Source: Escherichia coli
GTDB taxonomy: Bacteria > Pseudomonadota > Gammaproteobacteria > Enterobacterales > Enterobacteriaceae
Direction: 5' to 3' (one strand)
Assembly: GCF_024502345.1 (NCBI RefSeq)
Contig: NZ_JALDNN010000001.1
DNA: 64,000 bases
Made by a program: the position numbers and the translations under genes. Below the pieces are notes generated by a model, which saw only the letters and a program-made list of their open reading frames with translations, was not told where the DNA came from and ran no database searches. Positions 3,811-20,565 of the stretch are shown here, in pieces (the stretch's first letter is position 1; each line of letters starts with the position of its first letter).

Positions 3811-4053
3811 GAGCAGATTGTCTTTGCCCTGAAGCAGGCTGAGCTGGGTACGCCCGTACCGGAAGTCTGCCGCAAGCTGGGCATCTCCGATGCCACGTTC
3901 TACACCTGGCGCAAAAAGTACGGCGGGATTTCTCCTTCAGAGCTGAAACATATGCGGCAGCTCGAAGAGGAAAACCTTCGCCTGAAGAAGCTGGTTGCCG
4001 ACCTGAGTCTCGACAAGGCCATGCTGCAGGACGTGCTGGCAAAAAAGAGCTGA
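3811..4053 (+). pseudogene. IS3-family orfA fragment (HTH / leucine-zipper part), N-terminus removed by IS26
   Basis: Frame is open from the IS26 boundary: AEQIVFALKQAELGTPVPEVCRKLGISDATFYTWRKKYGG...LAKKS, stop at 4051-4053. The ORF-track entry 3262-4053 is an artefact that reads back across IS26. Confidence 0.75.
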
Positions 4054-4253
4054 CGCTGGCACGCCTGCGCGAGTGGGTCAGGGACTTACAGACCCGCTAC
4101 GGTGCCAGTGAAAGACAGGTCTGCTTTGCGCTGAAGATCAGCCGCAGTTCGTTCCGGTACCGCTCCGTTGCGGCAGACGACAGCGCACTGCGACTGCGCA
4201 TCAGGGAGATAACCGAAACCCGTGTCCACTATGGCTACCGCAGAGTCCACGTC

Positions 4254-4895
4254 ATGCTGAAACGGGAAGGCTGGCGCGATAATCACAAGCGTGTTTACCG
4301 GCTTTACCGCGAGCAGGGATTATCGCTGCGGCTGAAACGCCCCCGCCGCAATAAATCTGCGCTGAAACGTCAGCCACAGCCGCAGGGGCTGTATCCCAAT
4401 CATGTATGGGGGATGGATTTTGTCTCCGATGCGCTGTTTGACGGTCGCCGGCTTCGCCTGCTGACGGTAATCGATCTCTACACGCGCGAATGTCTGGGGA
4501 TCTGCGTGGGCCAGAACCTGCGCTCTTCAGAAGTGGCGGAGATGCTGGACACTATCGCGTTGAGACGCCCATTACCGCAGCTACTGAAGACAGATAATGG
4601 CTCTGAATTTGCAGGGAAAATGCTGGATAAATGGGTGTACGAACGTGATATCCGGATCGATTTCTCACGGCCAGGCACGCCCACGGATAATGCTACGGTG
4701 GAGTCATTCAACGGCAGGCTGCGGCAGGAGTGCCTGAACGAGAACTGGTTTATGTCCAAGGAGGATGCCCGGTGCAAAATCGAGGTCTGGCGCATACACT
4801 ATAACCAGAGTCGTCCCCATTCTGCACTGGGCTGGATGACCCCGTGCGAATTCGCCGAGAAATCTGCCGGTTGCCAGAATAAGCAACCAACCTGA
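4254..4895 (+). CDS. IS3-family orfB (integrase-core domain), probably expressed as an OrfAB fusion
   Basis: The -1 frame relative to orfA is open from about 4047 (KKELTLARLREWVRDLQTRYGASERQVCF); the ORF track starts it at M4254; integrase-core C-terminus (RPHSALGWMTPCEFAE). Confidence 0.8.
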   Translation: MLKREGWRDNHKRVYRLYREQGLSLRLKRPRRNKSALKRQPQPQGLYPNHVWGMDFVSDALFDGRRLRLLTVIDLYTRECLGICVGQNLRSSEVAEMLDTIALRRPLPQLLKTDNGSEFAGKMLDKWVYERDIRIDFSRPGTPTDNATVESFNGRLRQECLNENWFMSKEDARCKIEVWRIHYNQSRPHSALGWMTPCEFAEKSAGCQNKQPT

Positions 4896-4915
4896 AGCCG
4901 GTTATTCCTGATTAT

Positions 4916-4947
4916 AGGCTCCGTTTGGGAAACGGAAAATATTGTAC
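4916..4947. repeat. outer 32 nt of a Tn3-family 38-bp terminal inverted repeat (copy a), split by an IS110-family insertion
   Basis: AGGCTCCGTTTGGGAAACGGAAAATATTGTAC resembles the intact IR at 15751-15788 (GGGGTCCGCTTGGAAAACGGAAATTATCCCAC read from outside); the remaining GTTAAG follows the IS at 6311-6316. Confidence 0.6.
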
Positions 4948-6310
4948 TATAAGGGCTTCCCCGGCATGTCAACGCCGGTTTTATAGTTTCTGTCTGCTCG
5001 TCAGTAAAATAAAGGGGAGAGACTGCGGTACTATAAACGGCCATGATAAATCGTTATCGATTCGGGCCCTGATGAAAGACGCGCGTGAGGTTCTTGTTCG
5101 TTAAGCGGATACGTATATCCTGTACAATAGCCAGATAGGCCTCACGGGGTCTAACCCTTTTTCATCAACGAGTTGCAGGTCAGATGGTTATACTGCTTTG
5201 TGCTTTAGCTGGCTGAGTACAGCCTGAAATCATCACCGTAATGCAACGATGCCCAGCACAGCCTCGCGTTTTTGGCGGCGATGGCTACAACAGCCCGCCA
5301 GTACCCCCTGCGCTCAACCAACTTACAAACCCAACGGCTGAATGAGTCAGTCCTTTTCTCTGCACCAATCAAAACCGAACGGGCCCCCTGAACCAGAAGC
5401 GTTCGCAGATATGAATCGCCCGCTTTCGTTATTCTGCCAAGCTTTGATTTTCCGCCACTGCTGTACTGTGATGGTGTAAGTCCCAGCCAGGCTGCCAGTT
5501 GGCGTCCATTCTTAAAATCATGGGCATTACCGATACTGGCGACCAGCGCACAGGCCGTTGTGGGACCAATCCCTTTCAGTTCCATCAGTCGTTGGCTGCG
5601 GTGATCCGTTTTTGCCATGCGGGACAGGATCCGGTCATATTCAGCGATGTTATCTTCAATGCGATTAATGTGTTCCAGCAGATCATCAACGCATTGCTGA
5701 ACCTGAAGCGGCAAAGAATTCTTCTGTTCAGAAACGATGTGGCGCAGGGCATCTGTACTTTGTGGAGCGATGACGCCGAATTCAGATATCAAACCTCTTA
5801 ATCGGTTATATGTTGCTGTTTTCTCTTCGATAAAACCTTGTCTGGTACGGTGTAGACATTGCATCGCCTGCTGGCTCTCATCCTTCACTGGCACGAACCG
5901 CATATGCGGGCGACGGACAGCCTCACAAATAGCCTGGGCATCAGCTGCATCATTTTTTCCTGATTTACCGGCCATGCGATATGGCGATACGAACTTTGCA
6001 GCCATCAAACGGGGCTCATGGCCATACTGCCGAAACACTCTTGCCCAGTAATGGGCGCCTGAGCACGCCTCCATCCCGATAACACAGGGAGGCAGGCTTG
6101 CAATTAACTCAGGAAGTGCAGCACGCGATACTTTAGGTTTAACCAGAACAGTTTTTCCATTTTGATCAACGCAGTGAACAGCGAACACATTTTTAGCAAG
6201 ATCGATACCGACAGTAGTGATAGTCATAACGAATCCCTCCAGGGCTATGTTTACCCCATGATTGCACAAGAGCTAATCAGGCACATATCCAGGGGAAGTC
6301 CCTTCCATTC
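4948..6310 (-). mobile_element. IS110-family insertion sequence, copy A (IS1111 / IS4321-IS5075-like), 1363 bp
   Basis: Bounded by TATAAGGGCTTCCCC (4948-) and GGGGAAGTCCCTTCCATTC (-6310); contains one IS110-family transposase gene; inserted inside a Tn3-family IR with no target duplication. Confidence 0.85.
5205..6227 (-). CDS. IS110-family transposase (340 aa from MTITTVGIDLAKN)
   Basis: N-terminal VGIDLAKN motif typical of IS110-family transposases; the ORF track begins 14 codons upstream, but copy B starts at the MTITTVGID methionine (6225-6227 here). Confidence 0.88.
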   Translation of the reverse strand: MTITTVGIDLAKNVFAVHCVDQNGKTVLVKPKVSRAALPELIASLPPCVIGMEACSGAHYWARVFRQYGHEPRLMAAKFVSPYRMAGKSGKNDAADAQAICEAVRRPHMRFVPVKDESQQAMQCLHRTRQGFIEEKTATYNRLRGLISEFGVIAPQSTDALRHIVSEQKNSLPLQVQQCVDDLLEHINRIEDNIAEYDRILSRMAKTDHRSQRLMELKGIGPTTACALVASIGNAHDFKNGRQLAAWLGLTPSQYSSGGKSKLGRITKAGDSYLRTLLVQGARSVLIGAEKRTDSFSRWVCKLVERRGYWRAVVAIAAKNARLCWASLHYGDDFRLYSAS

Positions 6311-6350
6311 GTTAAGATCAAATTTTAACCTGTAATACACTGATAAATTA

Positions 6351-6382
6351 GGGGCCCGCTTGGAAAACGGAAAATATCCTAC
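6351..6382. repeat. outer 32 nt of a Tn3-family 38-bp terminal inverted repeat (copy b), split by the second IS110-family insertion
   Basis: GGGGCCCGCTTGGAAAACGGAAAATATCCTAC, then the IS, then GTTAAG at 7746-7751 running directly into the tnpA remnant; together these reconstruct a 38-bp IR closely matching 15751-15788. Confidence 0.75.
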
Positions 6383-7745
6383 TATAAGGGCTTCCCCGAA
6401 CAGTCAACGCCGGTTTTTAATTTCTGTCTGTTCATCAATGAAAGGCAAGGGATAAGACTGCGCTACTATAAACGGTCATGCTGAATCGCTAGTGATTCGG
6501 ACCCTGATGAAAGACGCTCGTGAGATCCTCCTTCGTTAATCGGATAGTGATATCCAGTAGGATATGCAGATACTTCTCACGGGGGTCTAACCCTTTACCA
6601 TCAACAATTTACAGTTCAGTTACTACTCAGTTAAATTTTTCATGTTGTTGAATACAGTCTGAAGTCATCGCCGTAATGTAATGATGCCCAGCACAACCTC
6701 GCATTCTTGGCGGCGATTGCAACGACAGCACGCCAGTATCCCCGCCTACCAATCAACGAGCAGACCCAACGGCTAAACGGGTCCGTTCTATTCTCTGCCC
6801 CTACCATTACAGAACGGGCTCCCTGGACCAGTAGGGTTCGCAGATAGGCATCACCCGCTTTTGTTATCCTGCCAAGCTTTGATTTTCCGCCACTACTGTA
6901 TTGTGATGGCGTTAGCCCCAACCAGGCTGCCAGTTGGCGCCCGTTCTTAAAATCATGGGCATTGCCAATACTGGCGACCAGCGCACTCGCTGTGGTGGGC
7001 CCAACACCTTTCAGTTCCATTAACTGCTGGCTGCGATGATCTGTTTTGGCCACACGAGATAATACCCTGTCATATTCGGCGATTTTCTCTTCAATATTAG
7101 TGACATGTGTCAATAGATCATCAATGCACAGCCTAACCTGTACTGGCAGAGTTTCCTTCTGGTCAGAAACAACATGACGCAGAGCATCAGTGCTTTGTGG
7201 GGCAATAACCCCGAATTCAGATATCAGGCCCCGAAGACGGTTATACGTTGCTGTTCTTTCCTGGATAAATCCCTGTCTTGTCCGATGTAAGCATTGCATT
7301 GCCTGCTGGCTTTCGTCTTTGACTGGTACAAAGCGCATATGCGGCCGCTGCACTGCCTCACAAATAGCTATTGCATCAGCTGCATCATTTTTCCCGGTCT
7401 TACCCGCCATGCGATAGGGTGAGACAAATTTCGGAGCCATCAACCGGACATCATGGCCATACTGCCTGAATAATCTTGCCCAATAGTGGGCACCCGAGCA
7501 GGCTTCCATTCCAATGACACAGGGAGGTAAACCTGCGATGAGTTCAGAAAGTGCTGCACGCGACACCTTGGGTTTAACCAGAACAGCTTTACCATTTTGG
7601 TCAATGCAGTGAACAGCAAACACATTTTTAGCAAGATCGATACCGACAGTGGTGATGGTCATAACGAATCCCTCTGGGTCAATGTTTATCCTATGATTGC
7701 ACGAAAGTTAATCAGGCGCATATCTAGGGGAAGTCCCTTCCATTC
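6383..7745 (-). mobile_element. IS110-family insertion sequence, copy B, 1363 bp
   Basis: Same termini and same length as copy A; the transposase is about 88 percent identical to copy A by eye; inserted at the equivalent position of a second IR copy in the same orientation. Confidence 0.85.
6640..7662 (-). CDS. IS110-family transposase (340 aa)
   Basis: Intact ORF, a paralogue of the copy A transposase. Confidence 0.9.
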   Translation of the reverse strand: MTITTVGIDLAKNVFAVHCIDQNGKAVLVKPKVSRAALSELIAGLPPCVIGMEACSGAHYWARLFRQYGHDVRLMAPKFVSPYRMAGKTGKNDAADAIAICEAVQRPHMRFVPVKDESQQAMQCLHRTRQGFIQERTATYNRLRGLISEFGVIAPQSTDALRHVVSDQKETLPVQVRLCIDDLLTHVTNIEEKIAEYDRVLSRVAKTDHRSQQLMELKGVGPTTASALVASIGNAHDFKNGRQLAAWLGLTPSQYSSGGKSKLGRITKAGDAYLRTLLVQGARSVMVGAENRTDPFSRWVCSLIGRRGYWRAVVAIAAKNARLCWASLHYGDDFRLYSTT

Positions 7746-7746
7746 G

Positions 7747-8088
7747 TTAAGCCTGTTTTTTATACAGACTGCTATCTACTGAGCGTAACGAACGGTATTT
7801 TCCCTGTCCCAGCTTGAGGTTTGTTCGCCAGACGTAATCTCCACTCAAGTTGATGTGTTCCCATCCCAGCGGGGACAGATGAGAAATCAGCTGTTCATTT
7901 AGTGGGATCCCTTTTCGCTTCAGAGAATCTATGGCTCTTTCTATATATACCGTATTCCACAGTGAGATCGCCGCAGTCAGCAATGTCAGCCCGCTGGCCC
8001 GGTAGCTCTGGTTTTCCAGTCCCCGGTCTCTGATTTCCCCCAGCCGGTGCATAAAGACTGCTCGCGCTATAACAGCGCCCCCCCCCAC
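7747..8088 (-). pseudogene. tnpA: Tn3-family transposase TnpA, C-terminal remnant (about 110 codons)
   Basis: [53 protein letters not shown]...LYKKQA parallels the C-terminus of the intact TnpA at 12771-15755; ends next to the split IR; similarity is lost upstream at a poly-C tract near 8078-8086. Confidence 0.8.
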
Positions 8089-8267
8089 GAATCCCTGAAT
8101 AACCTGACACCGGAAGAGTACCGGCTGATGGCTGAAACCCCGGAAATCTCAAAAAGTGCGCGGAACTAAATCGGGTGACATAAAAAATTTCGAATGCTAA
8201 GAGGGCCGGCAGTCACCAGTAAAACCATAATGAGTAACTGCCTGATTAAAGTTGTGGGGATGTATAA

Positions 8268-9044
8268 TTAAAGATTAACGACTTCACCATCTTCAGGGAT
8301 ACTAACCTGGTCAGTAATCTTATTAAGATCTACATACTCATGGATTTCTTTTCGGGTTTGTCCAAAATGATTTACAGATTCCATATGTGTGGAAATAATA
8401 TGTGCTTTTGGAAGTATGTTATGTGTCCTTAGCACATCTTCTTTACCCATGATAATAGGCCCCAGATTTTCCACCTGCGCATATCCCGTATTCAGGATAA
8501 CGATATCAGGCTGATATTTATGCATAACCTGCTCTACATCATTAATCCAGATAGTATCACCAACTATATAGATAGTCTTTTCGCCATCAGACTGGAGAAT
8601 AACCCCCATAGCTTCACCTAATAGCTCTGCCGCAGCGGGGTTGCGGAATGCCTCATCACTACCATGTTGACAGTGAGTTGGAATTAAGCGAATTCCGGCG
8701 TATTCAATTTCATTATCAAGAACTTGTAGGTTAATAAATCCATCGCGGGCCAGTTCGTTTTTGTCTTCAGTATTCTGTACAAAAATAAGCATATCGCGAG
8801 GGATCAGCGCCCGGGCAGCAGCATCCCAGTGGTCATCATGCGTATGAGTAACAATAATAGCATCTACATCAATAACCTCTGATACCGGTAGAGGTAAGTC
8901 AACAAGAGGGTTCCGTAAATGGCGGTTCATCGTCAATGGAAAACCAGGGAATGAACCTTTTGCTGATAACATCGGGTCAATCAGGATTTTTTTTCCTGCA
9001 TAATGAATAATTGCAGTGGCGTTACGGATCTGATGAAATTTCAT
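8268..9044 (-). CDS. MBL-fold metallo-hydrolase (258 aa)
   Basis: Metal-binding motif THTHDDHWD (HxHxDH); no N-terminal signal peptide, so not an obvious secreted class B beta-lactamase. Confidence 0.8.
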   Translation of the reverse strand: MKFHQIRNATAIIHYAGKKILIDPMLSAKGSFPGFPLTMNRHLRNPLVDLPLPVSEVIDVDAIIVTHTHDDHWDAAARALIPRDMLIFVQNTEDKNELARDGFINLQVLDNEIEYAGIRLIPTHCQHGSDEAFRNPAAAELLGEAMGVILQSDGEKTIYIVGDTIWINDVEQVMHKYQPDIVILNTGYAQVENLGPIIMGKEDVLRTHNILPKAHIISTHMESVNHFGQTRKEIHEYVDLNKITDQVSIPEDGEVVNL

Positions 9045-9114
9045 AATAGAACTCCAGTTCTGTATTAACAGAACACAGTAAGAGGATTAATTTACTTTCC
9101 AGCTGGCAGAAGTT

Positions 9115-9896
9115 TTATATCGCTTCTGAACCCCTGAATGTTTTTCGCCATACGGACGGCGATACGCCAAATTTTGCGATAAACTTTTCCCGTAAAGATG
9201 TTGCGGAACTAAAACCAACCAGCTCAGATACCTTCTGTACAGAGTGGGCTGTAGATTCCAGTAATACCTGCGCTTCTCTCAGACGCTCCGTTGTTAACCA
9301 GTCAACCAGTGTCATGCCCGTCGACTGTCGGAAGCGGCGTGTAAAGGTTCGTCGGCTCATGCTAACGACTTCACAAAGTTCATCCAGCGTCCAGCGTCTG
9401 GCCAGGTCCTGGCGCAGCGTTTCAACCAGCAGAATTATCTGGCGATCCTTTGTTGCAGATGGAAAAGGCATCTGAATATACTGAGCCTGTCCCCCGTCCC
9501 GATGAGGCGGGATCACCATTCGCCTTGCTATCTGATTGGCAATATTGCTCCCGTACAACTCCCTGACCAGATACAGACAGCAGTCCATACCCGCACCTGT
9601 ACCGGCAGAAGTAATAATATTATCGTCAGCTACATAGAGCGCATTCATATCCAGGTGGGTATTCGGAAACCGTGACTGAAAATCACTCTCATACAACCAG
9701 TGTGTCGACGCGTTTCTTGCATCCAGTAGTCCTGAATAGGCCAGAGCATAGGCACCAAGGCACAAACCCACAATGGTGGCATTATGCTGTGCAGCTTCCC
9801 GGAGTGCTTCCGTTAACTGTGGCTCCGGTACAATGTCAGGCGATGGCCAGAAAGGAACTATAACCATGTCAGCAGTACGTAACACCGATAAGTCAT
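9115..9896 (-). pseudogene. GlxA-type regulator (DJ-1/PfpI-like domain + AraC-family HTH), C-terminal part of a gene split by the IS2-like element
   Basis: DJ-1-type nucleophile region IVGLCLGAYALA followed by an AraC-type HTH (RRTFTRRFRQSTGMTLVDWL); the frame stays open upstream to the IS boundary at 9896. Confidence 0.8.
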
Positions 9897-9987
9897 TGAT
9901 GTAGCCCCCTGAAACACCGGACAGTAGCTGTATCTCCAGATAAGAGATAGGCTTGAATATATGTCTAACACTAACGCCAATTTTGAG

Positions 9988-10356
9988 ATGACCGGGATCC
10001 TGTTAGGGCAAGAAGTCCGTAAACGTAAAACTCCTCAGGAGAAGATCGCCATTATCCAGCAGACGATGGAGCCGGGTATGAATGTCTCCCATGTCGCCCG
10101 CCTGCATGGTATCCAGCCCAGCCTGCTGTTTAAGTGGAAGAAGCAATATCAGGAAGGCAGCCTCACCGCCGTTGCGGCTGGAGAGGAAGTCGTTCCTGCT
10201 TCTGAGCTTACTGCTGCTCTGAAGCAGGTCCGGGAGCTTCAGCGCCTTCTGGGCAAGAAAACGATGGAAGTTGAGATCCTGAAAGAAGCCGTGGAGTACG
10301 GTCAGTCGCGAAAATGGATAGCGCACGCGCCCTTGTTGCCAAAGGACGGGGAATAG
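9988..10356 (+). CDS. IS2-like orfA (InsC-like)
   Basis: [25 protein letters not shown]...[18 protein letters not shown] parallels IS2 InsC; start taken at the internal ATG 9988 rather than the ORF-track start 9961. Confidence 0.85.
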
Positions 10357-11195
10357 CCATGGTCAGCCGGACCATGGGCGTGTCGCGTGCGCAACTGTCA
10401 CTGCGGATTAACCGTTCTGCCGACTGGCAGGACAGGCGCTGTAACCGGCGTAATGAAGAAGCAGACGCAGAAATACTGTCGGCTATCCTCAACATTATCA
10501 GCGATATGCCGAGTTATGGTTATCGACGCGTGTGGGGCATCCTGCGCAAGCAACGTCGCACAGAGGGACAGCCACCTGTGAATGCCAAACGGCTTTACAG
10601 GATAATGAGCGAGCATAACCTGTTGTTGTTGCATCACAAACCAGAGCGACCGAAGCGTGAACATAAGGGCAAGATAGCGGTGGCAGAAAGCGATATGCGC
10701 TGGTGTTCAGATGGCTTCGAGTTCGGCTGCGACAACGGCGAAAAACTGCGGGTAACGTTCGCGCTGGACTGCTGCGACCGTGAGGCCATAGACTGGGCAG
10801 CAAGCACGGGAGGCTATGACAGTTCGACCGTGCAGGATGTGATGCTGAGGTCGGTGGAAAAGCGCTTCGGCGACAGGTTGCCCGACACAGCGGTGCAGTG
10901 GCTGACGGATAACGGTTCAGCGTATACCGCGTATGAAACGCGGAGGTTCGCGAGAGAGCTGAATCTGGAGCCCTGCACAACAGCGGTGAGCAGCCCGCAG
11001 AGTAATGGCATGGCCGAACGGTTCGTGAAAACGATGAAAGAAGACTATATCGCGTTCATGCCAAAACCGGATGTGAGAACAGCACTGCGAAACCTTGCAG
11101 TAGCGTTCACGCATTACAATGAAAACCACCCGCACAGCGCGCTGGGATATCACTCCCCGAGGGAATACCGGCGGCAGCGGACATCGTTAACTTAA
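10314..11195 (+). CDS. IS2-like orfB (InsD-like, integrase-core domain)
   Basis: MDSARAL...[26 protein letters not shown]...WLTDNGS...[13 protein letters not shown] parallels IS2 InsD. Confidence 0.88.
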
Positions 11196-11232
11196 GATAC
11201 AAAAGCTGTTCGGAGATGGAGGGTCAAGATCA

Positions 11233-11419
11233 ACACCGATAAGTCATATTCCGGTGTAATATGCATACCATGTGAGGTTTTTATAGTCTTTCCCTGCACG
11301 GAGCATAAAACAACGTTAAATAATGAATGGTCCGGGATAATATCTGCAAAAATTGCCAGGGGTACGGAGAGATGAAATGCACTGATATCATCGGTTATCA
11401 AAATGGCTATCTTTTTCAT
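11233..11419 (-). pseudogene. GlxA-type regulator, N-terminal 61 codons (MKKIAILITDDISAFHLSVPLAIF)
   Basis: Start codon at 11417-11419 with a GGAGAG ribosome-binding site; the frame ends inside the IS2-like element; the sequence continues in 9115-9896 after a 15-16 bp direct repeat. Confidence 0.75.
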
Positions 11420-11438
11420 TTCATACTCTCCTGTAAGA

Positions 11439-11843
11439 TTAACTAATCTGACGTACGATATCGTTATAATCAAAGTGCGCACGTTTTTCCTTAATTTTAC
11501 CGCCTTCAATAGTCAGCAGCATCATCAGAGAAATACGTACTTTTTTCCCGGTTGGTTTATATCCGTGCATTTCATTATTGTGGATACCTTCAAAAACAAC
11601 ATAAGCTACGACTTTATCCGCTTCACTGATAAGAACTTCAGGCTTCATGCTGAAGCCCCGGAATCCATCAAGTGTGGCAGTTTCAGATGCGATAAAACCG
11701 TCAACTCCATGAATGGGGTTATCTATCTGTGAATAGAAAACAAAGTCACTGGAGCAAAGTGATTTAAGGGTTAAAAAATCATAACCTTCAAGAGCCTGAT
11801 AAAAATCATGTACAAGTTTTTCATTTGAGTTTTTCATGGTCAT
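11439..11843 (-). CDS. SnoaL-like / NTF2-fold protein (134 aa)
   Basis: Small ORF 19 bp upstream of the regulator gene on the same strand; sequence pattern resembles SnoaL/ketosteroid-isomerase-like proteins (family call is tentative). Confidence 0.6.
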   Translation of the reverse strand: MTMKNSNEKLVHDFYQALEGYDFLTLKSLCSSDFVFYSQIDNPIHGVDGFIASETATLDGFRGFSMKPEVLISEADKVVAYVVFEGIHNNEMHGYKPTGKKVRISLMMLLTIEGGKIKEKRAHFDYNDIVRQIS

Positions 11844-12035
11844 TCACCTTTTTGTCTGGAGTAAGGACATTCTACGTGGTGTACACAAGTGAGTGCGAGT
11901 GACCAAAAAGACATTAATCAACATGATTGGGCCATTGTTATGAGAAAAAGGCTCCCCCCGCTGGGTTTCAACATCTGCCTGTGTTAAGCCCGCTCATAGC
12001 ACATAGCATAACGTCCAGCTGAGAACTCACGGTCA

Positions 12036-12611
12036 TTACTGTCCTGCCTTTACCCTGAGTATGGTTTGCCGGGTTGTATTAAACTCCCGAGCAATGGCGC
12101 TGATACTGGCCCCGGCCTTAATACGTGCAATCACAGAAAGTTTCTGTTCTTCATTCAGTGTTGAAGGACGGCCAAACCGCTTTCCGGCAGCTTTCGCTCT
12201 CGCAATACCAGAGTGCGTACGCTCAAGAAGCAAATCCCTTTCAAATTCTGCCACAGCAGAGATGACCTGCATGGTCATTTTTCCTGCCGGGCTTGTCAAA
12301 TCAACTCCGCCCAGCGCGAGGCAGTGAACGCGAATATCTGAAGCAGCCAGTTGTTCAACCGTTTTTCTGATATCCATCGCATTGCGCCCCAGTCGGTCGA
12401 GTTTAGTAACAATCAGCACATCACCATTTTCCATGCGATCAAGCAGCCGGATAAATCCGGGGCGTTCGCTGGCAGCAACCGAACCACTGATATGCTCCTC
12501 AATCAGTCGCTGGGGTCTGATGGCAAAACCCGCCGTTTCAATTTCACGCCGCTGATTTTCTGTAGTCTGTTCCAGAGTGGAGACCCGGCAATAAGCAAAA
12601 ACTCGTGACAT
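12036..12611 (-). CDS. tnpR: serine recombinase / resolvase TnpR (191 aa from [15 protein letters not shown])
   Basis: N-terminal catalytic serine motif (YCRVST) and C-terminal HTH; divergent from tnpA; start taken at the internal ATG 12609-12611 rather than the ORF-track start. Confidence 0.88.
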
Positions 12612-12770
12612 AGGAAACTTTCCGTACGTAAAGGATGTCCGAATTATAGCGTGTGTACGAAATAAATTTCGCTTACTTTCGGACATACTGTCAGCTTAGT
12701 GTACGAAACCGACCGGTTTCGGTCACAGCGAACAAATAACAGATGAAAACTATACGCGAGGGAGGCATTT

Positions 12771-15755
12771 ATGCCACGGCGACAGATACTGAGCAGCGAA
12801 GAGCAGGAACGCTTACTGGTTATACCAGATGATGAAATTATTCTGACCCGAATGTGTTTTCTGAACGAACCGGATATTGCGCTCATTAATAAGCACCGAA
12901 GGCCAGCGAATCGCCTGGGCTTTGCTGTATTACTCTGTTATCTGCGTGGACCTGGATTTATTCCGGACAAAAGCAGTGCTCCTCACAATGGCGTTGTATC
13001 CAGGGTTGCTTCCCGACTGAAACTTCAGCCTGATTTATGGCCGGAATATGCATCCAGAGAGCAAACCCGCTGGGAACATCTGACCGAACTTTATCGCTAC
13101 CTGGAACTATCCCCGTTCAGCCGGTCAATGCAAAAAGACTGTATCCGTCATCTGCACCCCTATGCCATGCGAACTGACAAAGGATTTATGCTGGCGGAAG
13201 AAATGCTCAGCTGGCTACATAACAATAATGTTATTTTCCCTTCTGTTGAAGTGATCGAACGGACGCTTGCCGAAGTCGTCACGCTCGCTAACAGATCGGT
13301 ATTTTCGACACTTACCGCGCAACTGGAAAAGCAGCATAAATCAGCACTCGACAGCCTGCTCATATCAGAGGGTGAACAACCTTCCCGTCTGGCATGGCTG
13401 CTACAGCCTCCGGGTAAAATAAACGGTAAAAATGTGCTGCAACATATCGACCGGCTTAATTCCATCGCTGCGCTGGGGTTGCCTGATGGTATTGCACTTT
13501 CCGTTCACCAGAACAGGTTGCTTAAACTGGCGCGTGAGGGCCGGAAAATGAGCAGCAGGGACCTGGCAAAATTCACCGATGTCAGACGTTACGCTACGCT
13601 GGTTTGTATAATAACAGAGGCCAGGGCCACCCTGACTGACGAAGTGATTGATCTGCACGAGCGTATCCTGGGTAGTCTGTTCAGCAGGGCAAAACGCACG
13701 CAGGCCGAACGGCTCCAGCAAACGGGAAAGCTTATTCAGAGCAAGCTGAAGCAGTACGTTACCGTCGGGCAGGCGTTACTTAACGCCAGAGAATCCGGGG
13801 AAGATCCCTGGACTGCAATAGAAGATGTCCTTCCCTGGCAGGAATTCATCAACAGCGTGGAAGAAACGCGGTTTCTTTCCCGTAAGGGCAATTTCGACGC
13901 GCTTCATCTGATCACCGAAAAATACAGTACGTTGCGTAAATATGCCCCGCGTATGCTGTCAGCATTGCAGTTCATGGCGACACCTGCGGCGCAGGCGCTC
14001 AGCGATGCGCTGGACACCATAACGGAAATGTACCGTAAACAACTTCGTAAAGTGCCGCCATCAGCGCCAACAGGGTTTATCCCTGAAAGCTGGCGAAAAC
14101 TGGTGCTCACGCCTTCAGGCATCGACCGCAAGTACTACGAGTTTTGCGTACTGAATGAACTCAAGGGTGCATTACGTTCCGGTGATATCTGGGTAAAAGG
14201 ATCGCGCCGCTACAAAAATTTTGATGATTATCTCATCCCGACTGCTGAGTTTGAGAAATCCCGACATAATGACCAGTTACAGTTGGCCGTTCAGACCGAT
14301 AGCCAGGCATACCTTCAGGCCCGTATGACTCTTCTTGCATCTCGGCTGGAAGAAGTTAACGCGATGGCGCTTGCCGGTGATTTGCCCGATGTAGATATCT
14401 CAGATAAAGGCGTAAAAATCACTCCACTGGAGAACAGCGTTCCTTCAGGTGTTTCGCCCTTTGCAGATTTGGTCTATGGCATGCTTCCCCATCCGAAAAT
14501 TACGGAGATACTGGAAGAAGTTGATAGCTGGACGGGATTTACGCGTCACTTCGCGCACCTCAAAAATAATAACGTCAGACCAAAAGACGGAAGACTGTTG
14601 CTGACCACCATTCTGGCTGACGGCATCAACCTTGGGCTGACAAAAATGGCGGAATCCTGCCCTGGGGCCACAAGATCGTCACTCGAAGGTATTCAGACAT
14701 GGTACATCAGGGATGAAACTTATTCAGCGGCACTGGCCGAGCTGGTCAACGCACAGAAAGAGCGGCCTCTGGCCGCATTCTGGGGCGACGGGACAACATC
14801 GTCGTCAGACGGGCAGAACTTTCGGGTAGGCAGTCACGGACGTTATGCCGGTCAGGTCAATCTTAAATATGGTCAGGAGCCGGGCGTGCAGATTTATACG
14901 CATATCTCAGACCAATACAGCCCGTTCTACGCCAAAGTGATCAGCCGGGTGCGCGACTCAACCCACGTGCTTGATGGCCTGCTGTACCATGAAAGCGATC
15001 TGGAAATTACCGAGCATTACACCGATACCGCAGGCTTCACTGAACATGTTTTCGCCCTGATGCACCTGCTGGGATTCGCTTTTGCGCCAAGGATCCGTGA
15101 TCTTCATGACAAGCGGCTGTTTATTCATGGAAAGGCCGAGCGCTATCCGGGGCTTCAGTCTGTCATATCAACAACCTGCCTGAATATCAAAGACATTGAG
15201 TCGCACTGGGATGAGGTATTGCGCCTGGCAACCTCGATTAAGCAGGGGACAGTCACCGCATCACTGATGATGAAAAAGTTAGCCAGTTACCCAAAACAGA
15301 ATGGACTTGCCAAAGCGCTGAGAGAGATTGGCCGCATCGAACGGACACTATTTATGCTGGACTGGTTCCGTGATCCCGGTCTGCGCCGACGCGTGCAGGC
15401 GGGGCTGAATAAGGGTGAGGCCCGTAATGCCCTTGCGCGAGCGGTCTTTTTGCACCGTCTGGGTGAAATAAGGGATCGTGGGCTGGAGAATCAGAGTTAT
15501 CGCGCCAGCGGGCTGACATTACTGACAGCAGCGATCACGTTGTGGAACACGGTATATATAGAAAGAGCTATTGAGTCACTAAAACGAAAGGGTATCCCGA
15601 TAAATGAGCAACTGGTCTCTCATCTTTCTCCCCTGGGCTGGGAACATATCAATCTGAGTGGAGATTACGTCTGGCGTAATAATCTTAAGCTGGGATCCGG
15701 AAAATACCGCTCATTACGTACAGTCGATACCGCTTTGTACAAAAAACAGTCTTAG
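12771..15755 (+). CDS. tnpA: Tn3-family transposase TnpA (994 aa)
   Basis: Size and sequence pattern typical of Tn3-family TnpA (about 1000 aa); the stop codon lies inside the terminal IR. Confidence 0.93.
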   Translation: MPRRQILSSEEQERLLVIPDDEIILTRMCFLNEPDIALINKHRRPANRLGFAVLLCYLRGPGFIPDKSSAPHNGVVSRVASRLKLQPDLWPEYASREQTRWEHLTELYRYLELSPFSRSMQKDCIRHLHPYAMRTDKGFMLAEEMLSWLHNNNVIFPSVEVIERTLAEVVTLANRSVFSTLTAQLEKQHKSALDSLLISEGEQPSRLAWLLQPPGKINGKNVLQHIDRLNSIAALGLPDGIALSVHQNRLLKLAREGRKMSSRDLAKFTDVRRYATLVCIITEARATLTDEVIDLHERILGSLFSRAKRTQAERLQQTGKLIQSKLKQYVTVGQALLNARESGEDPWTAIEDVLPWQEFINSVEETRFLSRKGNFDALHLITEKYSTLRKYAPRMLSALQFMATPAAQALSDALDTITEMYRKQLRKVPPSAPTGFIPESWRKLVLTPSGIDRKYYEFCVLNELKGALRSGDIWVKGSRRYKNFDDYLIPTAEFEKSRHNDQLQLAVQTDSQAYLQARMTLLASRLEEVNAMALAGDLPDVDISDKGVKITPLENSVPSGVSPFADLVYGMLPHPKITEILEEVDSWTGFTRHFAHLKNNNVRPKDGRLLLTTILADGINLGLTKMAESCPGATRSSLEGIQTWYIRDETYSAALAELVNAQKERPLAAFWGDGTTSSSDGQNFRVGSHGRYAGQVNLKYGQEPGVQIYTHISDQYSPFYAKVISRVRDSTHVLDGLLYHESDLEITEHYTDTAGFTEHVFALMHLLGFAFAPRIRDLHDKRLFIHGKAERYPGLQSVISTTCLNIKDIESHWDEVLRLATSIKQGTVTASLMMKKLASYPKQNGLAKALREIGRIERTLFMLDWFRDPGLRRRVQAGLNKGEARNALARAVFLHRLGEIRDRGLENQSYRASGLTLLTAAITLWNTVYIERAIESLKRKGIPINEQLVSHLSPLGWEHINLSGDYVWRNNLKLGSGKYRSLRTVDTALYKKQS

Positions 15756-15788
15756 CGTGGGATAATTTCCGTTTTCCAAGCGGACCCC
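15751..15788. repeat. Tn3-family 38-bp terminal inverted repeat (tnpA-proximal end)
   Basis: Reverse complement reads GGGGTCCGCTTGGAAAACGGAAATTATCCCACGCTAAG; starts with GGGG and ends TAAG, as in Tn3-family IRs. Confidence 0.85.
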
Positions 15789-15858
15789 AGGGAGAGCTGA
15801 GAACATTAAATTTTAATATAAACAAAGAATTACCTTCTTAGCGTACGTTACCGTCCCA

Positions 15859-16092
15859 TTGGCCCTCAAACCCCTCAACACCCTGATGGAACGTTTTTTT
15901 AGAAGTCTGAAAACAGAATGGGTGCCGGATAATGGATACGCTAATTTTAGCGAAGCCAGCACAGCGATAACGAATTACATAACGGGATATTACAGCCAGC
16001 TCAGACCTCATCAATATAACGGTAGTTTGACGCGGAATGAATCAGAACGATTGCTCTGGAAAAACTCTAAAGCCGTGGCCAACTATTGTTGA
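15859..16092 (+). pseudogene. IS3-family orfB C-terminal fragment
   Basis: MERFFRSLKTEWVP...YYSQLRPHQYNGSLTRNESERLLW is the typical C-terminus of an IS3-family OrfB; only about 75-90 codons remain (frame open from about 15817), directly to the right of the Tn3-family IR. Confidence 0.7.
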
Positions 16093-16103
16093 CCACTACA
16101 CAT

Positions 16104-19507: not shown

Positions 19508-20565
19508 GGCTTTGTTGAATAAATCAGATTTCGGGTAAGTCTCCCCCGTAGCGGGTTGTGTTTTCAGGCAATACGCACGCTTTCAGGCATACCTGCTTTC
19601 GTCATTTTGTTCAGCGCTCGTACCAGGGCCATAGCCTCTGCAACCTGACCATCGTAGTCACGCAGTGTCAGTGAACCCCCGAACAGCTGTTTTACCCGGT
19701 ACATCGCCGTTTCCGCTATCGAGCGACGGTTGTAATCTGTTGTCCATTTCCACCGCGCATTACTCCCGGTCATTCGCTGATTAGCCACTGCACGGTTACG
19801 GTCTGCATATTCACCGGGCCAGTAACCCGCACCTTTTCGGGGAGGGATAAGCGCGCTGATTTTCTTACGCCGCAGTTCATCGTGACATAGCCGGGTATCG
19901 TAAGCGCCATCGGCGGCGGCTGACCTGATTTTCCGGTGGGTTTGCCGGATTAACCCGGGGAAGGCCTCTGAGTCCGTAACGTTGTTCAGCGACAGGTCAG
20001 CGCAGATGATTTCATGTGTTTTACTGTCAACGGCGAGATGCAGCTTACGCCAGATACGGCGGCGTTCCTGGCCATGCTTTTTGACTTTCCACTCGCCTTC
20101 ACCGAAGACCTTCAGCCCGGTGGAATCAATTACCAGGTGTGCGATTTCACCCCGGGTGGGCGTTTTGAAACTGACATTAACCGACTTTGCCCGCCTGCTG
20201 ACACAGCTGTAATCCGGGCAGCGTAGCGGAACGTTCATCAGAGAAAAAATGGAATCAATAAAGCCCTGCGCAGCGCGCAGGGTCAGCCTGAATACGCGTT
20301 TAATGACCAAGCACAGTCGTGATGGCAAGGTCAGAATAGCGCTGAGGTCTGCCTCGTGAAGAAGGTGTTGCTGACTCATACCAGGCCTGAATAGCTTCAT
20401 CATCCAGCCAGAAAGTTATGGAGCCACGGTTGATGAGGGCTTTATTGTAGGTGGGCCAGTTGGTGATTTTGAACTTTTGCTTTGCCACGGAACGGTCTGC
20501 GTTGTCGGGAAGATACGTGATCTGATCCTTCAACTCAGCAAAAGTTCGATTTATTCAACAAAGCC
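19508..20565 (-). mobile_element. IS903-like element, copy 1 (1058 bp), flanked by a 9-bp target duplication
   Basis: IRs GGCTTTGTTGAATAAATC at 19508- and inverted ending 20565; direct repeats CCTCGTTTC at 19499-19507 and 20566-20574. Confidence 0.93.
19564..20533 (-). pseudogene. IS903 transposase, frameshifted
   Basis: Split into two ORFs (20300-20533 and 19564-20403); relative to copy 2 there is a 1-nt insertion near 20309-20310 (accaagcac versus accagcac). Confidence 0.9.

What the first reader, a model, noticed from the sequence alone, without database searches (positions are those of the whole stretch)
4916..7751. Two diverged IS110-family elements, each inserted at the same position and orientation inside a Tn3-family terminal inverted repeat, in tandem
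Each 1363-bp element is preceded by the outer 32 nt of a Tn3-family 38-bp IR and followed by the remaining GTTAAG, with no target duplication. This is the behaviour described for IR-targeting IS110-family members of the IS4321/IS5075 type. Here two paralogous copies (transposases roughly 88 percent identical by eye) occupy two slightly different IR copies only about 70 bp apart. The second IR belongs to a truncated tnpA remnant; the first appears to be a solo IR. Tandem IR-targeted insertions of two distinct relatives suggest repeated targeting of this locus or a nested history of Tn3-family ends.
Basis: partly seen in the sequence, partly recalled or inferred. Interest (0 to 1): 0.6.

Follow-up and report, generated by a model that had tools for sequence, protein, structure and literature searches.

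The report
Two RNA-guided IS in transposon ends
Two known, related insertion sequences (IS5708 and a close cousin) each sit at the same spot inside the end-repeat of a Tn3-family transposon, and each carries a small guide RNA matching its own repeat variant. This is a tidy example of known biology, not a new kind of element.

Summary
Window 4948-6310 and 6383-7745 are two intact 1363-bp IS1111-group (IS110-family) elements on the minus strand, 80% identical in DNA and 88% in transposase.

Each splits a 38-bp Tn3-family terminal inverted repeat (IR) between positions 32 and 33, with no target duplication. Copy 2 is 100% identical to IS5708. Copy 1 is 100% identical to many unnamed copies and falls in the IS1618/ISSm1/ISEc76 group.

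Both empty sites exist elsewhere. E. coli plasmid pSLy4 has IR-A, the same 34-bp spacer and IR-B, all uninterrupted. Plasmid pAA-ST131 has the parent transposon with IR-B intact and a 5-bp duplication. So this is two separate insertions into a pre-existing double IR, not a tandem duplication.

Each element's 3' non-coding region encodes a seekRNA/bridge-RNA-like fold whose guide matches its own IR variant: UAUUGUAC for IR-A and AUAUCCUAC for IR-B. The same covariation holds across 24 insertions in other genomes.

Their transposase is 38% identical to that of IS5075, and IS5075 inserts 10 bp further out, at positions 22|23.

Verdict: real, well explained and already known in kind. Interest is low.

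The parts
4916..4947 (+). IR-A, outer 32 nt of a 38-bp Tn3-family terminal inverted repeat (AGGCTCCGTTTGGGAAACGGAAAATATTGTAC)
   Evidence: Read directly. The uninterrupted 38-mer is in pSLy4, L044 6001-6038. The same IR type, starting GGGC, holds clade members in L024, L028 and L029.
4948..6310 (-). IS copy 1: a 1363-bp IS1111-group element of the IS1618/ISSm1/ISEc76 group; exact ISfinder name not retrievable here
   Evidence: 100% identical over 1363 bp to copies in more than 10 E. coli and Enterobacter plasmids. Its exact transposase is seen on 490 contigs. The ends are GAATGGA+AGGGACTTCCCC and GGGGAAGCCCTT+ATA. Its 87.65% identity to the IS5708 transposase equals the value tabulated for IS1618.
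5205..6227 (-). Transposase gene of copy 1 (340 aa, DEDD/RuvC-like plus Transposase_20)
   Evidence: PF01548 and PF02371. NF033542 'IS110 family RNA-guided transposase', 360 bits against a cut-off of 140.
5069..5168 (-). Predicted seekRNA/bridge-RNA target-binding domain of copy 1. Guide 1 is UAUUGUAC (5122-5129), the inner hairpin is 5107-5120, and guide 2 is CUUAACG (5099-5105).
   Evidence: Guide matches. Consensus fold. 97.4% of cells paired and 8 compensatory pairs, reached by 0/500 shuffles. Coordinates.
5028..5036 (-). Third matching segment, UUAUAGUAC, equal to the IS right end plus its flank (TTATA|GTAC). It is probably the donor-flank recognition part of the long RNA.
   Evidence: It differs by one base between the two classes, GUAC versus GUAG, in step with the flank. 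Its role is inferred.
6311..6316 (+). IR-A, inner 6 nt (GTTAAG)
6317..6350 (+). 34-bp spacer between the two IRs, the only remaining interior of the element that owned IR-A
   Evidence: Identical in L001/L045 and in pSLy4.
6351..6382 (+). IR-B, outer 32 nt (GGGGCCCGCTTGGAAAACGGAAAATATCCTAC)
   Evidence: The uninterrupted, identical 38-mer is in pAA-ST131 (L002).
6383..7745 (-). IS copy 2 = IS5708 (1363 bp)
   Evidence: 100% identical to many copies that PGAP labels IS5708. Its exact transposase is on at least 1000 contigs.
6640..7662 (-). Transposase gene of IS5708 (340 aa)
   Evidence: NF033542, 357 bits. 88% identical to the copy 1 transposase.
6504..6604 (-). Predicted seekRNA target-binding domain of IS5708. 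Guide 1 is AUAUCCUAC (6557-6565), the inner hairpin is 6542-6555, and guide 2 is UUAACG (6534-6539).
7746..7751 (+). IR-B, inner 6 nt (GTTAAG)
7747..8088 (-). C-terminal remnant (113 aa) of a Tn3-family tnpA, ending inside IR-B
   Evidence: NF033527, positions 873-954 of 954.
15751..15788 (-). Intact right IR (GGGGTCCGCTTGGAAAACGGAAATTATCCCACGCTAAG) of the same Tn3-family transposon; IR-B is its left end
   Evidence: Window 7745-15789 is 99.9% identical to the unit in pAA-ST131, which is flanked there by the 5-bp repeat ATATT. It matches both guides poorly and is unoccupied.

Best explanation
These are two intact, separately acquired IS1111-group (IS110-family) insertion sequences: IS5708 and a relative from the IS1618/ISSm1 group.

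Each encodes a DEDD transposase. Downstream of that gene, each encodes a structured RNA (seekRNA/bridge RNA). An internal loop of this RNA carries two short guides. The 5' guide pairs with the top strand to the right of the insertion point. The 3' guide pairs with the bottom strand to the left of it.

The transposase-RNA complex inserts the circularised IS, in one orientation and without a duplication, between positions 32 and 33 of a 38-bp Tn3-family terminal repeat. The target here was a pre-existing pair of directly repeated IRs 34 bp apart. The pair is left over from one Tn3-family element lying 34 bp inside the end of another.

The two IRs differ at IR positions 28-29 (TG versus CC), and each IS carries the matching guide, so each IR attracted its own cognate IS.

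Shown here: element identities, boundaries, empty sites, the conserved RNA fold and the guide-target covariation. Inferred from published work on relatives (PMC11187229, PMC11208160): that the RNA is made, binds the transposase and directs insertion. Also inferred: circularisation creates a promoter at the joined ends, TTGACA-17 nt-TAGAAT in copy 1 and TTGACT-17 nt-TAGAAT in copy 2. Splitting the IR probably disables that transposon end.
For: - **Element identity.** 100% DNA matches for each copy. Pfam and NCBIfam domains.
- **IS1111 end rule.** A 6-7-bp left extension, 12-13-bp subterminal repeats, a 3-bp right extension and a 257-nt 3' non-coding region, as described in PMC11187229.
- **Empty sites.** pAA-ST131 for IR-B; pSLy4 for IR-A + 34 bp + IR-B.
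- **Guides.** Copy 1 has UAUUGUAC against a flank of GTACAATA. IS5708 has AUAUCCUAC against GTAGGATAT. Both have (C)UUAACG against CTTAAC|G. The top-strand guide lies 5' of the bottom-strand guide and the two overlap at the insertion point, as reported for ISEc11, ISPa11 and ISKpn4.
- **Covariation in other genomes.** Across 24 insertions there are three guide classes, each found with its own IR class. The mean is 8.33/9 complementary positions against 6.87 when flanks are shuffled, reached by 0 of 20000 shuffles.
- **Specificity within the window.** Of four Tn3-type IRs, each IS sits in the one it matches best (8/9 and 9/9). The two unoccupied IRs match at 5-7/9.
- **RNA fold.** 97.4% of cells paired and 8 pairs with compensatory changes, reached by 0/500 shuffles. 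Sliding the partners drops pairing to 34-49%.
- **Independent targeting.** An E. coli chromosome (L045) has 100% identical flanks, but an IS only 87.6% identical in IR-A. All 170 differences lie inside the IS, between 4980 and 6289.
- **Junction promoter sequence.**
Against: - There is no expression or activity data for these copies. Rfam 15 has no family for this RNA, so the RNA is predicted only.
- Guide 2 of IS5708 matches the left flank at 5/6 positions.
- Several relatives sit in sites with one or two guide mismatches (L005, L009, L019, L021, L039). Pairing is therefore tolerant, or some copies are decayed.
- The shuffle test ignores shared ancestry among the IS copies.
- Sequence alone cannot show that either insertion happened at this locus rather than being inherited with the IR.
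- The role of the third matching segment is inference.
Confidence: 0.88

Rival explanations
1. Assembly by inheritance or recombination rather than by transposition at this locus. One or both IS-interrupted IRs arrived already interrupted, for example the Tn3-family transposon came with IS5708 already in its left IR. This concerns history only and is compatible with the RNA-guided mechanism.
For: IR-B interrupted by IS5708 is widespread: many plasmids match from the first base of IR-B into IS5708 at 97.6-99% (H78-H90). The syntenic E. coli island L045 has the same IS5708 in the same IR. In the window the transposon has no flanking 5-bp duplication (AATTA versus AGGGA), so rearrangement has occurred.
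Against: Uninterrupted versions of both IRs exist. IR-A holds two different IS (87.6% identical) in two genomes with 100% identical flanks, which needs at least one separate insertion or precise replacement at this very site.
Confidence: 0.3
2. Protein-only site recognition. The transposase itself recognises the Tn3-family IR, by sequence or shape, and the matching segments in the non-coding region are incidental.
For: All clade members share the CTTA(A/G/C)C|GTA core context, which a protein could read. No RNA has been shown for these particular elements.
Against: The variable part of the target (positions +4 to +9) covaries with guide 1 across three classes, while the transposases stay 86-90% identical. 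The guides sit in a conserved, covariation-supported internal loop. For related IS1111 members the RNA is essential and reprogrammable (PMC11187229).
Confidence: 0.04
3. Simple tandem duplication of one IS-plus-IR segment, followed by divergence.
For: The two units have the same length, orientation and architecture.
Against: The two IS are only 80% identical, yet each is 100% identical to many copies elsewhere. The two IRs differ. The IR-A + 34 bp + IR-B arrangement exists without either IS in pSLy4.
Confidence: 0.01

Closest known systems
IS5708 (ISfinder; IS110 family, IS1111 group)
   Same: Copy 2 is 100% identical over 1363 bp to copies annotated as IS5708. Durrant et al. list IS5708 with a bridge RNA predicted in the right end (PMC11208160 supplement).
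   Different: Nothing detectable. The ISfinder reference entry itself could not be consulted.
IS1618 / ISSm1 / ISEc76 / ISCfr26 / ISLad6 (ISfinder members that share more than 70% transposase identity with IS5708)
   Same: The copy 1 transposase is 87.65% identical to that of IS5708, numerically the value tabulated for IS1618 (PMC11187229 supplement). Its sequence closely resembles the ISSm1 representative printed in the PMC11208160 supplement.
   Different: The exact name is unresolved, and PGAP labels it only 'IS110 family'. Its guide 1 is UAUUGUAC rather than IS5708's AUAUCCUAC.
IS4321 / IS5075 (Partridge and Hall 2003, J Bacteriol 185:6371; cited from reference lists, paper not held)
   Same: They are IS1111-group elements that insert orientation-specifically, without a duplication, into the 38-bp IR of Tn21/Tn3-family transposons. 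They have the same RNA architecture: for IS5075 in L001, the 5' guide is AAAACGGAAA, then a hairpin, then the 3' guide AUAUUUUC.
   Different: The transposase is only 38% identical. The elements are 1327 bp rather than 1363 bp. They insert at IR position 22|23 rather than 32|33. The two types can therefore share one IR, as in L001, L005 and L018.
ISEc11 / ISXne4 seekRNA system (Siddiquee et al. 2024, PMC11187229) and the IS621 bridge RNA (Durrant et al. 2024, PMC11208160)
   Same: A DEDD transposase plus a non-coding RNA with two guides flanking an inner hairpin. The top-strand guide lies 5' of the bottom-strand guide, as in IS1111 members. Close relatives are naturally re-targeted by guide changes. 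A promoter forms at the circle junction.
   Different: The target here is another mobile element's terminal repeat. The RNA of these two elements has not been shown experimentally.

Membership tests
IS110 family, IS1111 group | DEDD (RuvC-like) N-terminal domain plus IS110-type C-terminal domain, about 330-350 aa | tested here: met
   PF01548 (E 2.7e-18) and PF02371 (E 1.3e-27) in copy 1. NF033542 scores 360 and 357 bits against a cut-off of 140 for the two copies. Both proteins are 340 aa.
IS110 family, IS1111 group | Subterminal inverted repeats of 11-13 bp, with a 6-7-bp left and a 3-bp right terminal extension | tested here: met
   Left end GAATGG(A)+AAGGGACTTCCCC; right end GGGGAAGCCCTT+ATA, in both copies. 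The rule is stated in PMC11187229.
IS110 family, IS1111 group | Long non-coding region downstream of the transposase gene | tested here: met
   257 nt after the stop codon in both copies; only 83 nt lie upstream of the ATG.
IS110 family, IS1111 group | Insertion at one position and in one orientation of a specific target, with no target-site duplication | tested here: met
   Empty sites in L002 and L044. The same junction occurs at about two dozen insertions.
IS110 family, IS1111 group | seekRNA/bridge RNA in the 3' non-coding region, with a top-strand guide 5' of a bottom-strand guide | tested here: met
   Met in silico only: guides, covariation with the target, and a conserved fold with compensatory pairs. 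RNA production and transposase binding cannot be tested with these tools.
IS110 family, IS1111 group | Circular intermediate with a promoter assembled at the joined ends | not testable with these tools
   The joined ends would read TTGACA-17 nt-TAGAAT in copy 1 and TTGACT-17 nt-TAGAAT in copy 2. Circle formation itself needs PCR.
   125/326 = 38% identity to the IS5075 transposase of L001. 37.99% in the PMC11187229 supplement.
   IS5075 lies between IR positions 22 and 23; the IS5708 clade lies between 32 and 33. Both occur in one IR in L001.
Tn3-family terminal inverted repeat (the target) | A 38-bp repeat of the form GGGG...ACG(C/T)TAAG at the transposon terminus, overlapping the end of tnpA, with a 5-bp target duplication on transposition | tested here: met
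   IR-B: the reconstructed 38-mer is identical to the intact IR in L002, whose transposon is flanked by ATATT, and the tnpA remnant ends inside it. IR-A: a 38-mer starting AGGC (GGGC in L024, L028 and L029). The segment shared between the window and pSLy4 starts exactly at its outer end. No tnpA lies next to IR-A here.

The most novel reading that the evidence does not exclude
The IS5708 clade may be a radiation of RNA-guided 'hyperparasites' of Tn3-family transposons. On this reading it has diversified by re-programming one guide to follow IR sequence variants, giving at least three specificity classes: GTAGGATAT, GTACAATA and GTACGTTTT. The unrelated IS4321/IS5075 lineage has converged on the same 38-bp repeat in a register 10 bp away, so the two can stack in one IR. 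Nested Tn3 ends would then become multi-IS arrays, such as this one and the triple array in E. coli VREC0864. I could not find this described explicitly in the held literature. ISfinder, TnCentral or Partridge and Hall 2003 may already cover it.
Probability: 0.5. Interest if true: 0.35.

Novelty: already known. Interest (0 to 1): 0.2.

Why it matters
This is a clean natural illustration of guide-RNA-programmed target choice. Two 88%-identical transposases sit 72 bp apart, each in the IR variant that its own guide matches. It also shows how insertion sequences disable and pile up in the ends of Tn3-family transposons in enterobacterial islands and plasmids, which is useful for annotation and for reconstructing the history of such regions. 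It does not open a new question. The elements, their IR targeting and the RNA mechanism are all published.

Tried and rejected
- **Rfam.** A permissive scan of 4000-9000 gave no match, so the RNA had to be defined from scratch.
- **Exact junction.** Searches for the copy1-spacer-copy2 junction in PLSDB and in complete E. coli genomes found no identical arrangement. The closest is the syntenic triple array in NZ_LR536431.1.
- **Partridge and Hall 2003** (PMC219399) is not in the library, so the published IS4321/IS5075 insertion point was re-derived from L001 and L003.
- **Naming copy 1.** PGAP and the cluster look-up give only 'IS110 family'. Literature searches for IS1618, ISEc76, ISCfr26, ISLad6 and ISSm1 gave no target information. 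The IS1618 assignment rests only on an equal percentage in a published matrix.
- **A 5-bp duplication around the Tn3-family transposon in the window.** None was found (AATTA versus AGGGA).
- **Truncation of IR-A by the upstream IS3-family element.** Rejected, because pSLy4 has the same AGGC start in a different flank.
- **Tandem duplication and misassembly.** Considered and rejected, because the copies are only 80% identical.
The alignment fold was used instead.
Full report
**1. What is in the sequence**

- Unit 1: 4916-4947 is AGGCTCCGTTTGGGAAACGGAAAATATTGTAC, 4948-6310 is a 1363-bp element, and 6311-6316 is GTTAAG.
- Then come 34 bp (6317-6350).
- Unit 2: 6351-6382 is GGGGCCCGCTTGGAAAACGGAAAATATCCTAC, 6383-7745 is a second 1363-bp element, and 7746-7751 is GTTAAG.

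Both elements carry a 340-aa ORF on the minus strand, at 5205-6227 and 6640-7662. The elements are 80.1% identical in DNA. Their proteins are 298/340 = 88% identical.

The proteins have the DEDD_Tnp_IS110 and Transposase_20 domains. They score 360 and 357 bits on NCBIfam NF033542, 'IS110 family RNA-guided transposase', against a cut-off of 140.

In the elements' own orientation the ends are GAATGG(A)-AAGGGACTTCCCC ... GGGGAAGCCCTT-ATA, and a 257-nt non-coding region follows the gene. These are the defining features of the IS1111 group: subterminal repeats, a 6-7-bp left and a 3-bp right extension, and a 3' non-coding region (PMC11187229).

**2. Which elements they are**

Copy 2 is 100% identical over its full length to many copies annotated IS5708. 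Its exact protein is on at least 1000 contigs.

Copy 1 is 100% identical to copies in more than ten E. coli and Enterobacter plasmids, labelled only 'IS110 family'. Its exact protein is on 490 contigs. Published tables place IS1618, ISSm1, ISEc76, ISCfr26 and ISLad6 at 85-88% transposase identity to IS5708. The value for IS1618, 87.65%, equals 298/340. The ISSm1 representative printed by Durrant et al. closely resembles copy 1. I could not consult ISfinder, so the name of copy 1 remains probable rather than shown.

**3. The empty sites exist**

Deleting the IS in silico gives two 38-mers.

The IR-B 38-mer is present, uninterrupted and identical, in plasmid pAA-ST131 (NZ_KY706108.1, L002). There it is the left end of the same Tn3-family transposon: window 7745-15789 matches at 99.9%, apart from an IS2-like insertion present only in the window. 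That transposon is flanked there by the 5-bp repeat ATATT.

A search with both IS removed found E. coli plasmid pSLy4 (NZ_CP015916.1, L044). It carries IR-A, the same 34-bp spacer, IR-B and the start of the tnpA remnant, all uninterrupted. In pSLy4 the first base of IR-B is A rather than G.

So neither insertion made a target duplication, both are at IR position 32|33 (with a 1-nt ambiguity), and the double IR predates both IS.

The segment shared with pSLy4 starts exactly at the outer end of IR-A. This supports IR-A being a genuine transposon terminus, of which only 34 bp of interior remain.

IR-B is more than a remnant's IR. Together with the intact right IR at 15751-15788, a resolvase gene and a 994-aa tnpA, it bounds a complete transposon. 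The 113-aa tnpA fragment next to IR-B matches positions 873-954 of 954 of NF033527.

**4. Not a duplication; repeated targeting**

Each copy is identical to copies elsewhere, yet only 80% identical to its neighbour. Tandem duplication is therefore excluded.

An E. coli chromosome (NZ_LR536431.1; L001, L045) carries the same island. Its flanks are 100% identical on the left and 99.85-99.97% identical through the transposon and beyond. But the IS in its IR-A is only 87.6% identical to copy 1. All 170 differences lie between 4980 and 6289, inside the IS.

In that genome IR-B holds both IS5075 and IS5708, and the right IR holds another IS5075. The same site has therefore been hit independently by different relatives.

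Similar pile-ups occur in an E. hormaechei plasmid (L003) and a C. freundii plasmid (L047).

**5. Why each IR holds its own IS**

Read in the sense of the transposase gene, the non-coding region of copy 1 contains ...UAUUGUAC-[GGAUAUACGUAUCC hairpin]-GCUUAACG.... That of IS5708 contains ...AUAUCCUAC-[GGAUAUCACUAUCC hairpin]-GAUUAACG....

The first segment is complementary to the top strand just right of the insertion point: GTACAATA in IR-A and GTAGGATAT in IR-B. The second equals the top strand to the left plus one base (CTTAAC|G). The two segments overlap at the insertion point, and the top-strand guide lies 5' of the bottom-strand guide. This is the arrangement reported for IS1111-group seekRNAs (PMC11187229).

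A scan of one genome per species returned 40 loci encoding relatives. Nearly every copy with readable flanks sits at ...CTTA(A/G/C)C|IS|GTA... inside a Tn3-family IR.

Across 24 insertions there are three guide classes, each paired with its own IR class:
- AUAUCCUAC with GTAGGATA(T/A);
- UAUUGUAC with GTACAATA;
- AAAACGUAC with the Tn1000-like GTACGTTTT.

Mean complementarity is 8.33/9 positions against 6.87 after shuffling flanks, reached by 0 of 20000 shuffles. This test ignores shared ancestry among the copies.

Within the window, each IS matches its own IR best: 8/9 and 9/9, against 6/9 and 7/9 for the swapped pairings. The two unoccupied IRs, 15751-15788 and 15837-15874, match at 5-7/9.

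**6. The RNA fold**

A 17-sequence alignment of this region folds into an outer stem, a long stem, an internal loop carrying the two guides around the inner hairpin, and a second hairpin domain. Of all cells, 97.4% are paired. Eight pairs show compensatory changes, a count reached by 0 of 500 shuffles. Sliding the partners drops pairing to 34-49%.

A third segment, UUAUAGUAC in copy 1 and UUAUAGUAG in IS5708, equals the right IS end plus its flank and differs between the two classes in step with the flank. This fits the published need for the correct target sequence flanking the donor. Its role here is inference.

Rfam has no family for this RNA.

**7. Relation to IS4321/IS5075**

The IS5075 transposase is 38% identical to that of IS5708. 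IS5075 (1327 bp) lies between IR positions 22 and 23, ten base pairs outward. Its RNA has the same architecture, with guides AAAACGGAAA and AUAUUUUC in that other register. This explains how the two types share one IR in E. coli (L001), Rahnella bruchi (L005) and Edaphovirga cremea (L018).

**8. Mechanism, and what remains inferred**

Joining the ends of either element gives TTGACA (or TTGACT)-17 nt-TAGAAT. This is the kind of junction promoter described for IS1111 members.

The following rest on experiments with relatives, not on these copies:
- that circles form;
- that the RNA is made and binds the transposase;
- that splitting the IR at 32|33 disables that transposon end.

Sequence cannot tell whether IS5708 entered IR-B at this locus or arrived with the transposon. 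Interrupted IR-B is common in plasmids.

**9. Context**

Window 26-50 kb is E. coli core chromosome at 97.5-98.6% identity. This is therefore a chromosomal island rich in mobile elements: ISKpn26, IS1, IS26, an IS3-family element, an IS2-like element and an IS903-like element.

**10. Verdict**

Both elements, IR targeting by IS1111-group members and the guide-RNA mechanism are already published. The particular arrangement is absent from the collections searched, but it is one of many similar pile-ups. Interest is low (0.2).

The most novel reading still open is that the IS5708 clade has diversified by guide re-programming to track IR variants. A second, unrelated lineage would have converged on the same repeat in another register. 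That would be a modest, descriptive addition.

Noticed in passing
window 15837-15874 (minus strand) and 15875-16100: A fourth Tn3-family IR (GGGGTTTGAGGGCCAATGGGACGGTAACGTACGCTAAG, Tn1000-like) lies 48 bp outside the right IR 15751-15788. It is followed by the C-terminal remnant of an IS3-family orfB. The right side of the transposon therefore also has a double IR, mirroring the left side.
   Followed up: partly
window about 9897-11231: An IS2-like element (ORFs 9961-10356 and 10314-11195) splits the GlxA/AraC-type regulator gene of the Tn3-family transposon. The gene is intact in pAA-ST131 (L002) and in the E. coli chromosome (L045).
   Followed up: partly
window about 19508-20565: An IS903-like (IS5-family) insertion relative to L045. 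The flanking alignments overlap by 9 bp, consistent with a 9-bp target duplication.
   Followed up: no
window 6346-6350 versus 15789-15793: The Tn3-family transposon has no 5-bp direct repeat at its two ends in the window (AATTA versus AGGGA). The same unit in pAA-ST131 is flanked by ATATT. Its present position was therefore reached by rearrangement or nested insertion, not by a simple single transposition.
   Followed up: partly
L001 2701-4060; L005 around 5280; L018 around 5284: IS5075/IS4321-type and IS5708-type elements occupy the same 38-bp IR, 10 bp apart (positions 22|23 and 32|33). This is seen in E. coli, Rahnella bruchi and Edaphovirga cremea.
   Followed up: yes
L032 3892-5340 (betaproteobacterial MAG); L009 204-1575 (Xenorhabdus bovienii): A 61%-identical relative sits in a site that is not a Tn3 IR and carries different guide sequences. 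The Xenorhabdus copy sits in a non-IR site that matches its guide except for two bases. Both look like natural re-targeting or off-target insertion.
   Followed up: partly
L013, L014, L026, L041: Elements 87-90% identical in protein to IS5708 (about 98% identical in DNA to copy 1 in L014) appear on short contigs of assemblies labelled Brevibacterium, Chryseobacterium and Geodermatophilus. The Chryseobacterium sp. 18061 element (L014) has the same length, flanks and identity scores as the one in Citrobacter sp. 18056 (L015). This is probably cross-contamination of those assemblies.
   Followed up: no
L047 (C. freundii plasmid NZ_CP114565.1) 1797-5680: Three IS5708-clade elements lie within 5 kb. 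Two of them are in nested Tn3-family ends about 470 bp apart, one of which truncates the tnpA of the other transposon. This is the same pile-up pattern as in the window.
   Followed up: partly
window 26000-50000: E. coli core chromosomal genes (pqqL, yddB, dosP, gadC, maeA and others) at 97.5-98.6% identity. The mobile-element island containing the finding is therefore chromosomal, as in E. coli VREC0864.
   Followed up: partly
L023 160-211: A short partial duplication of the IS right end: the sequence GGGGAAGCCCTTATA occurs twice, 26 bp apart, next to a GTAGGATG-type IR in Erwinia oleae. It is unexplained.
   Followed up: no
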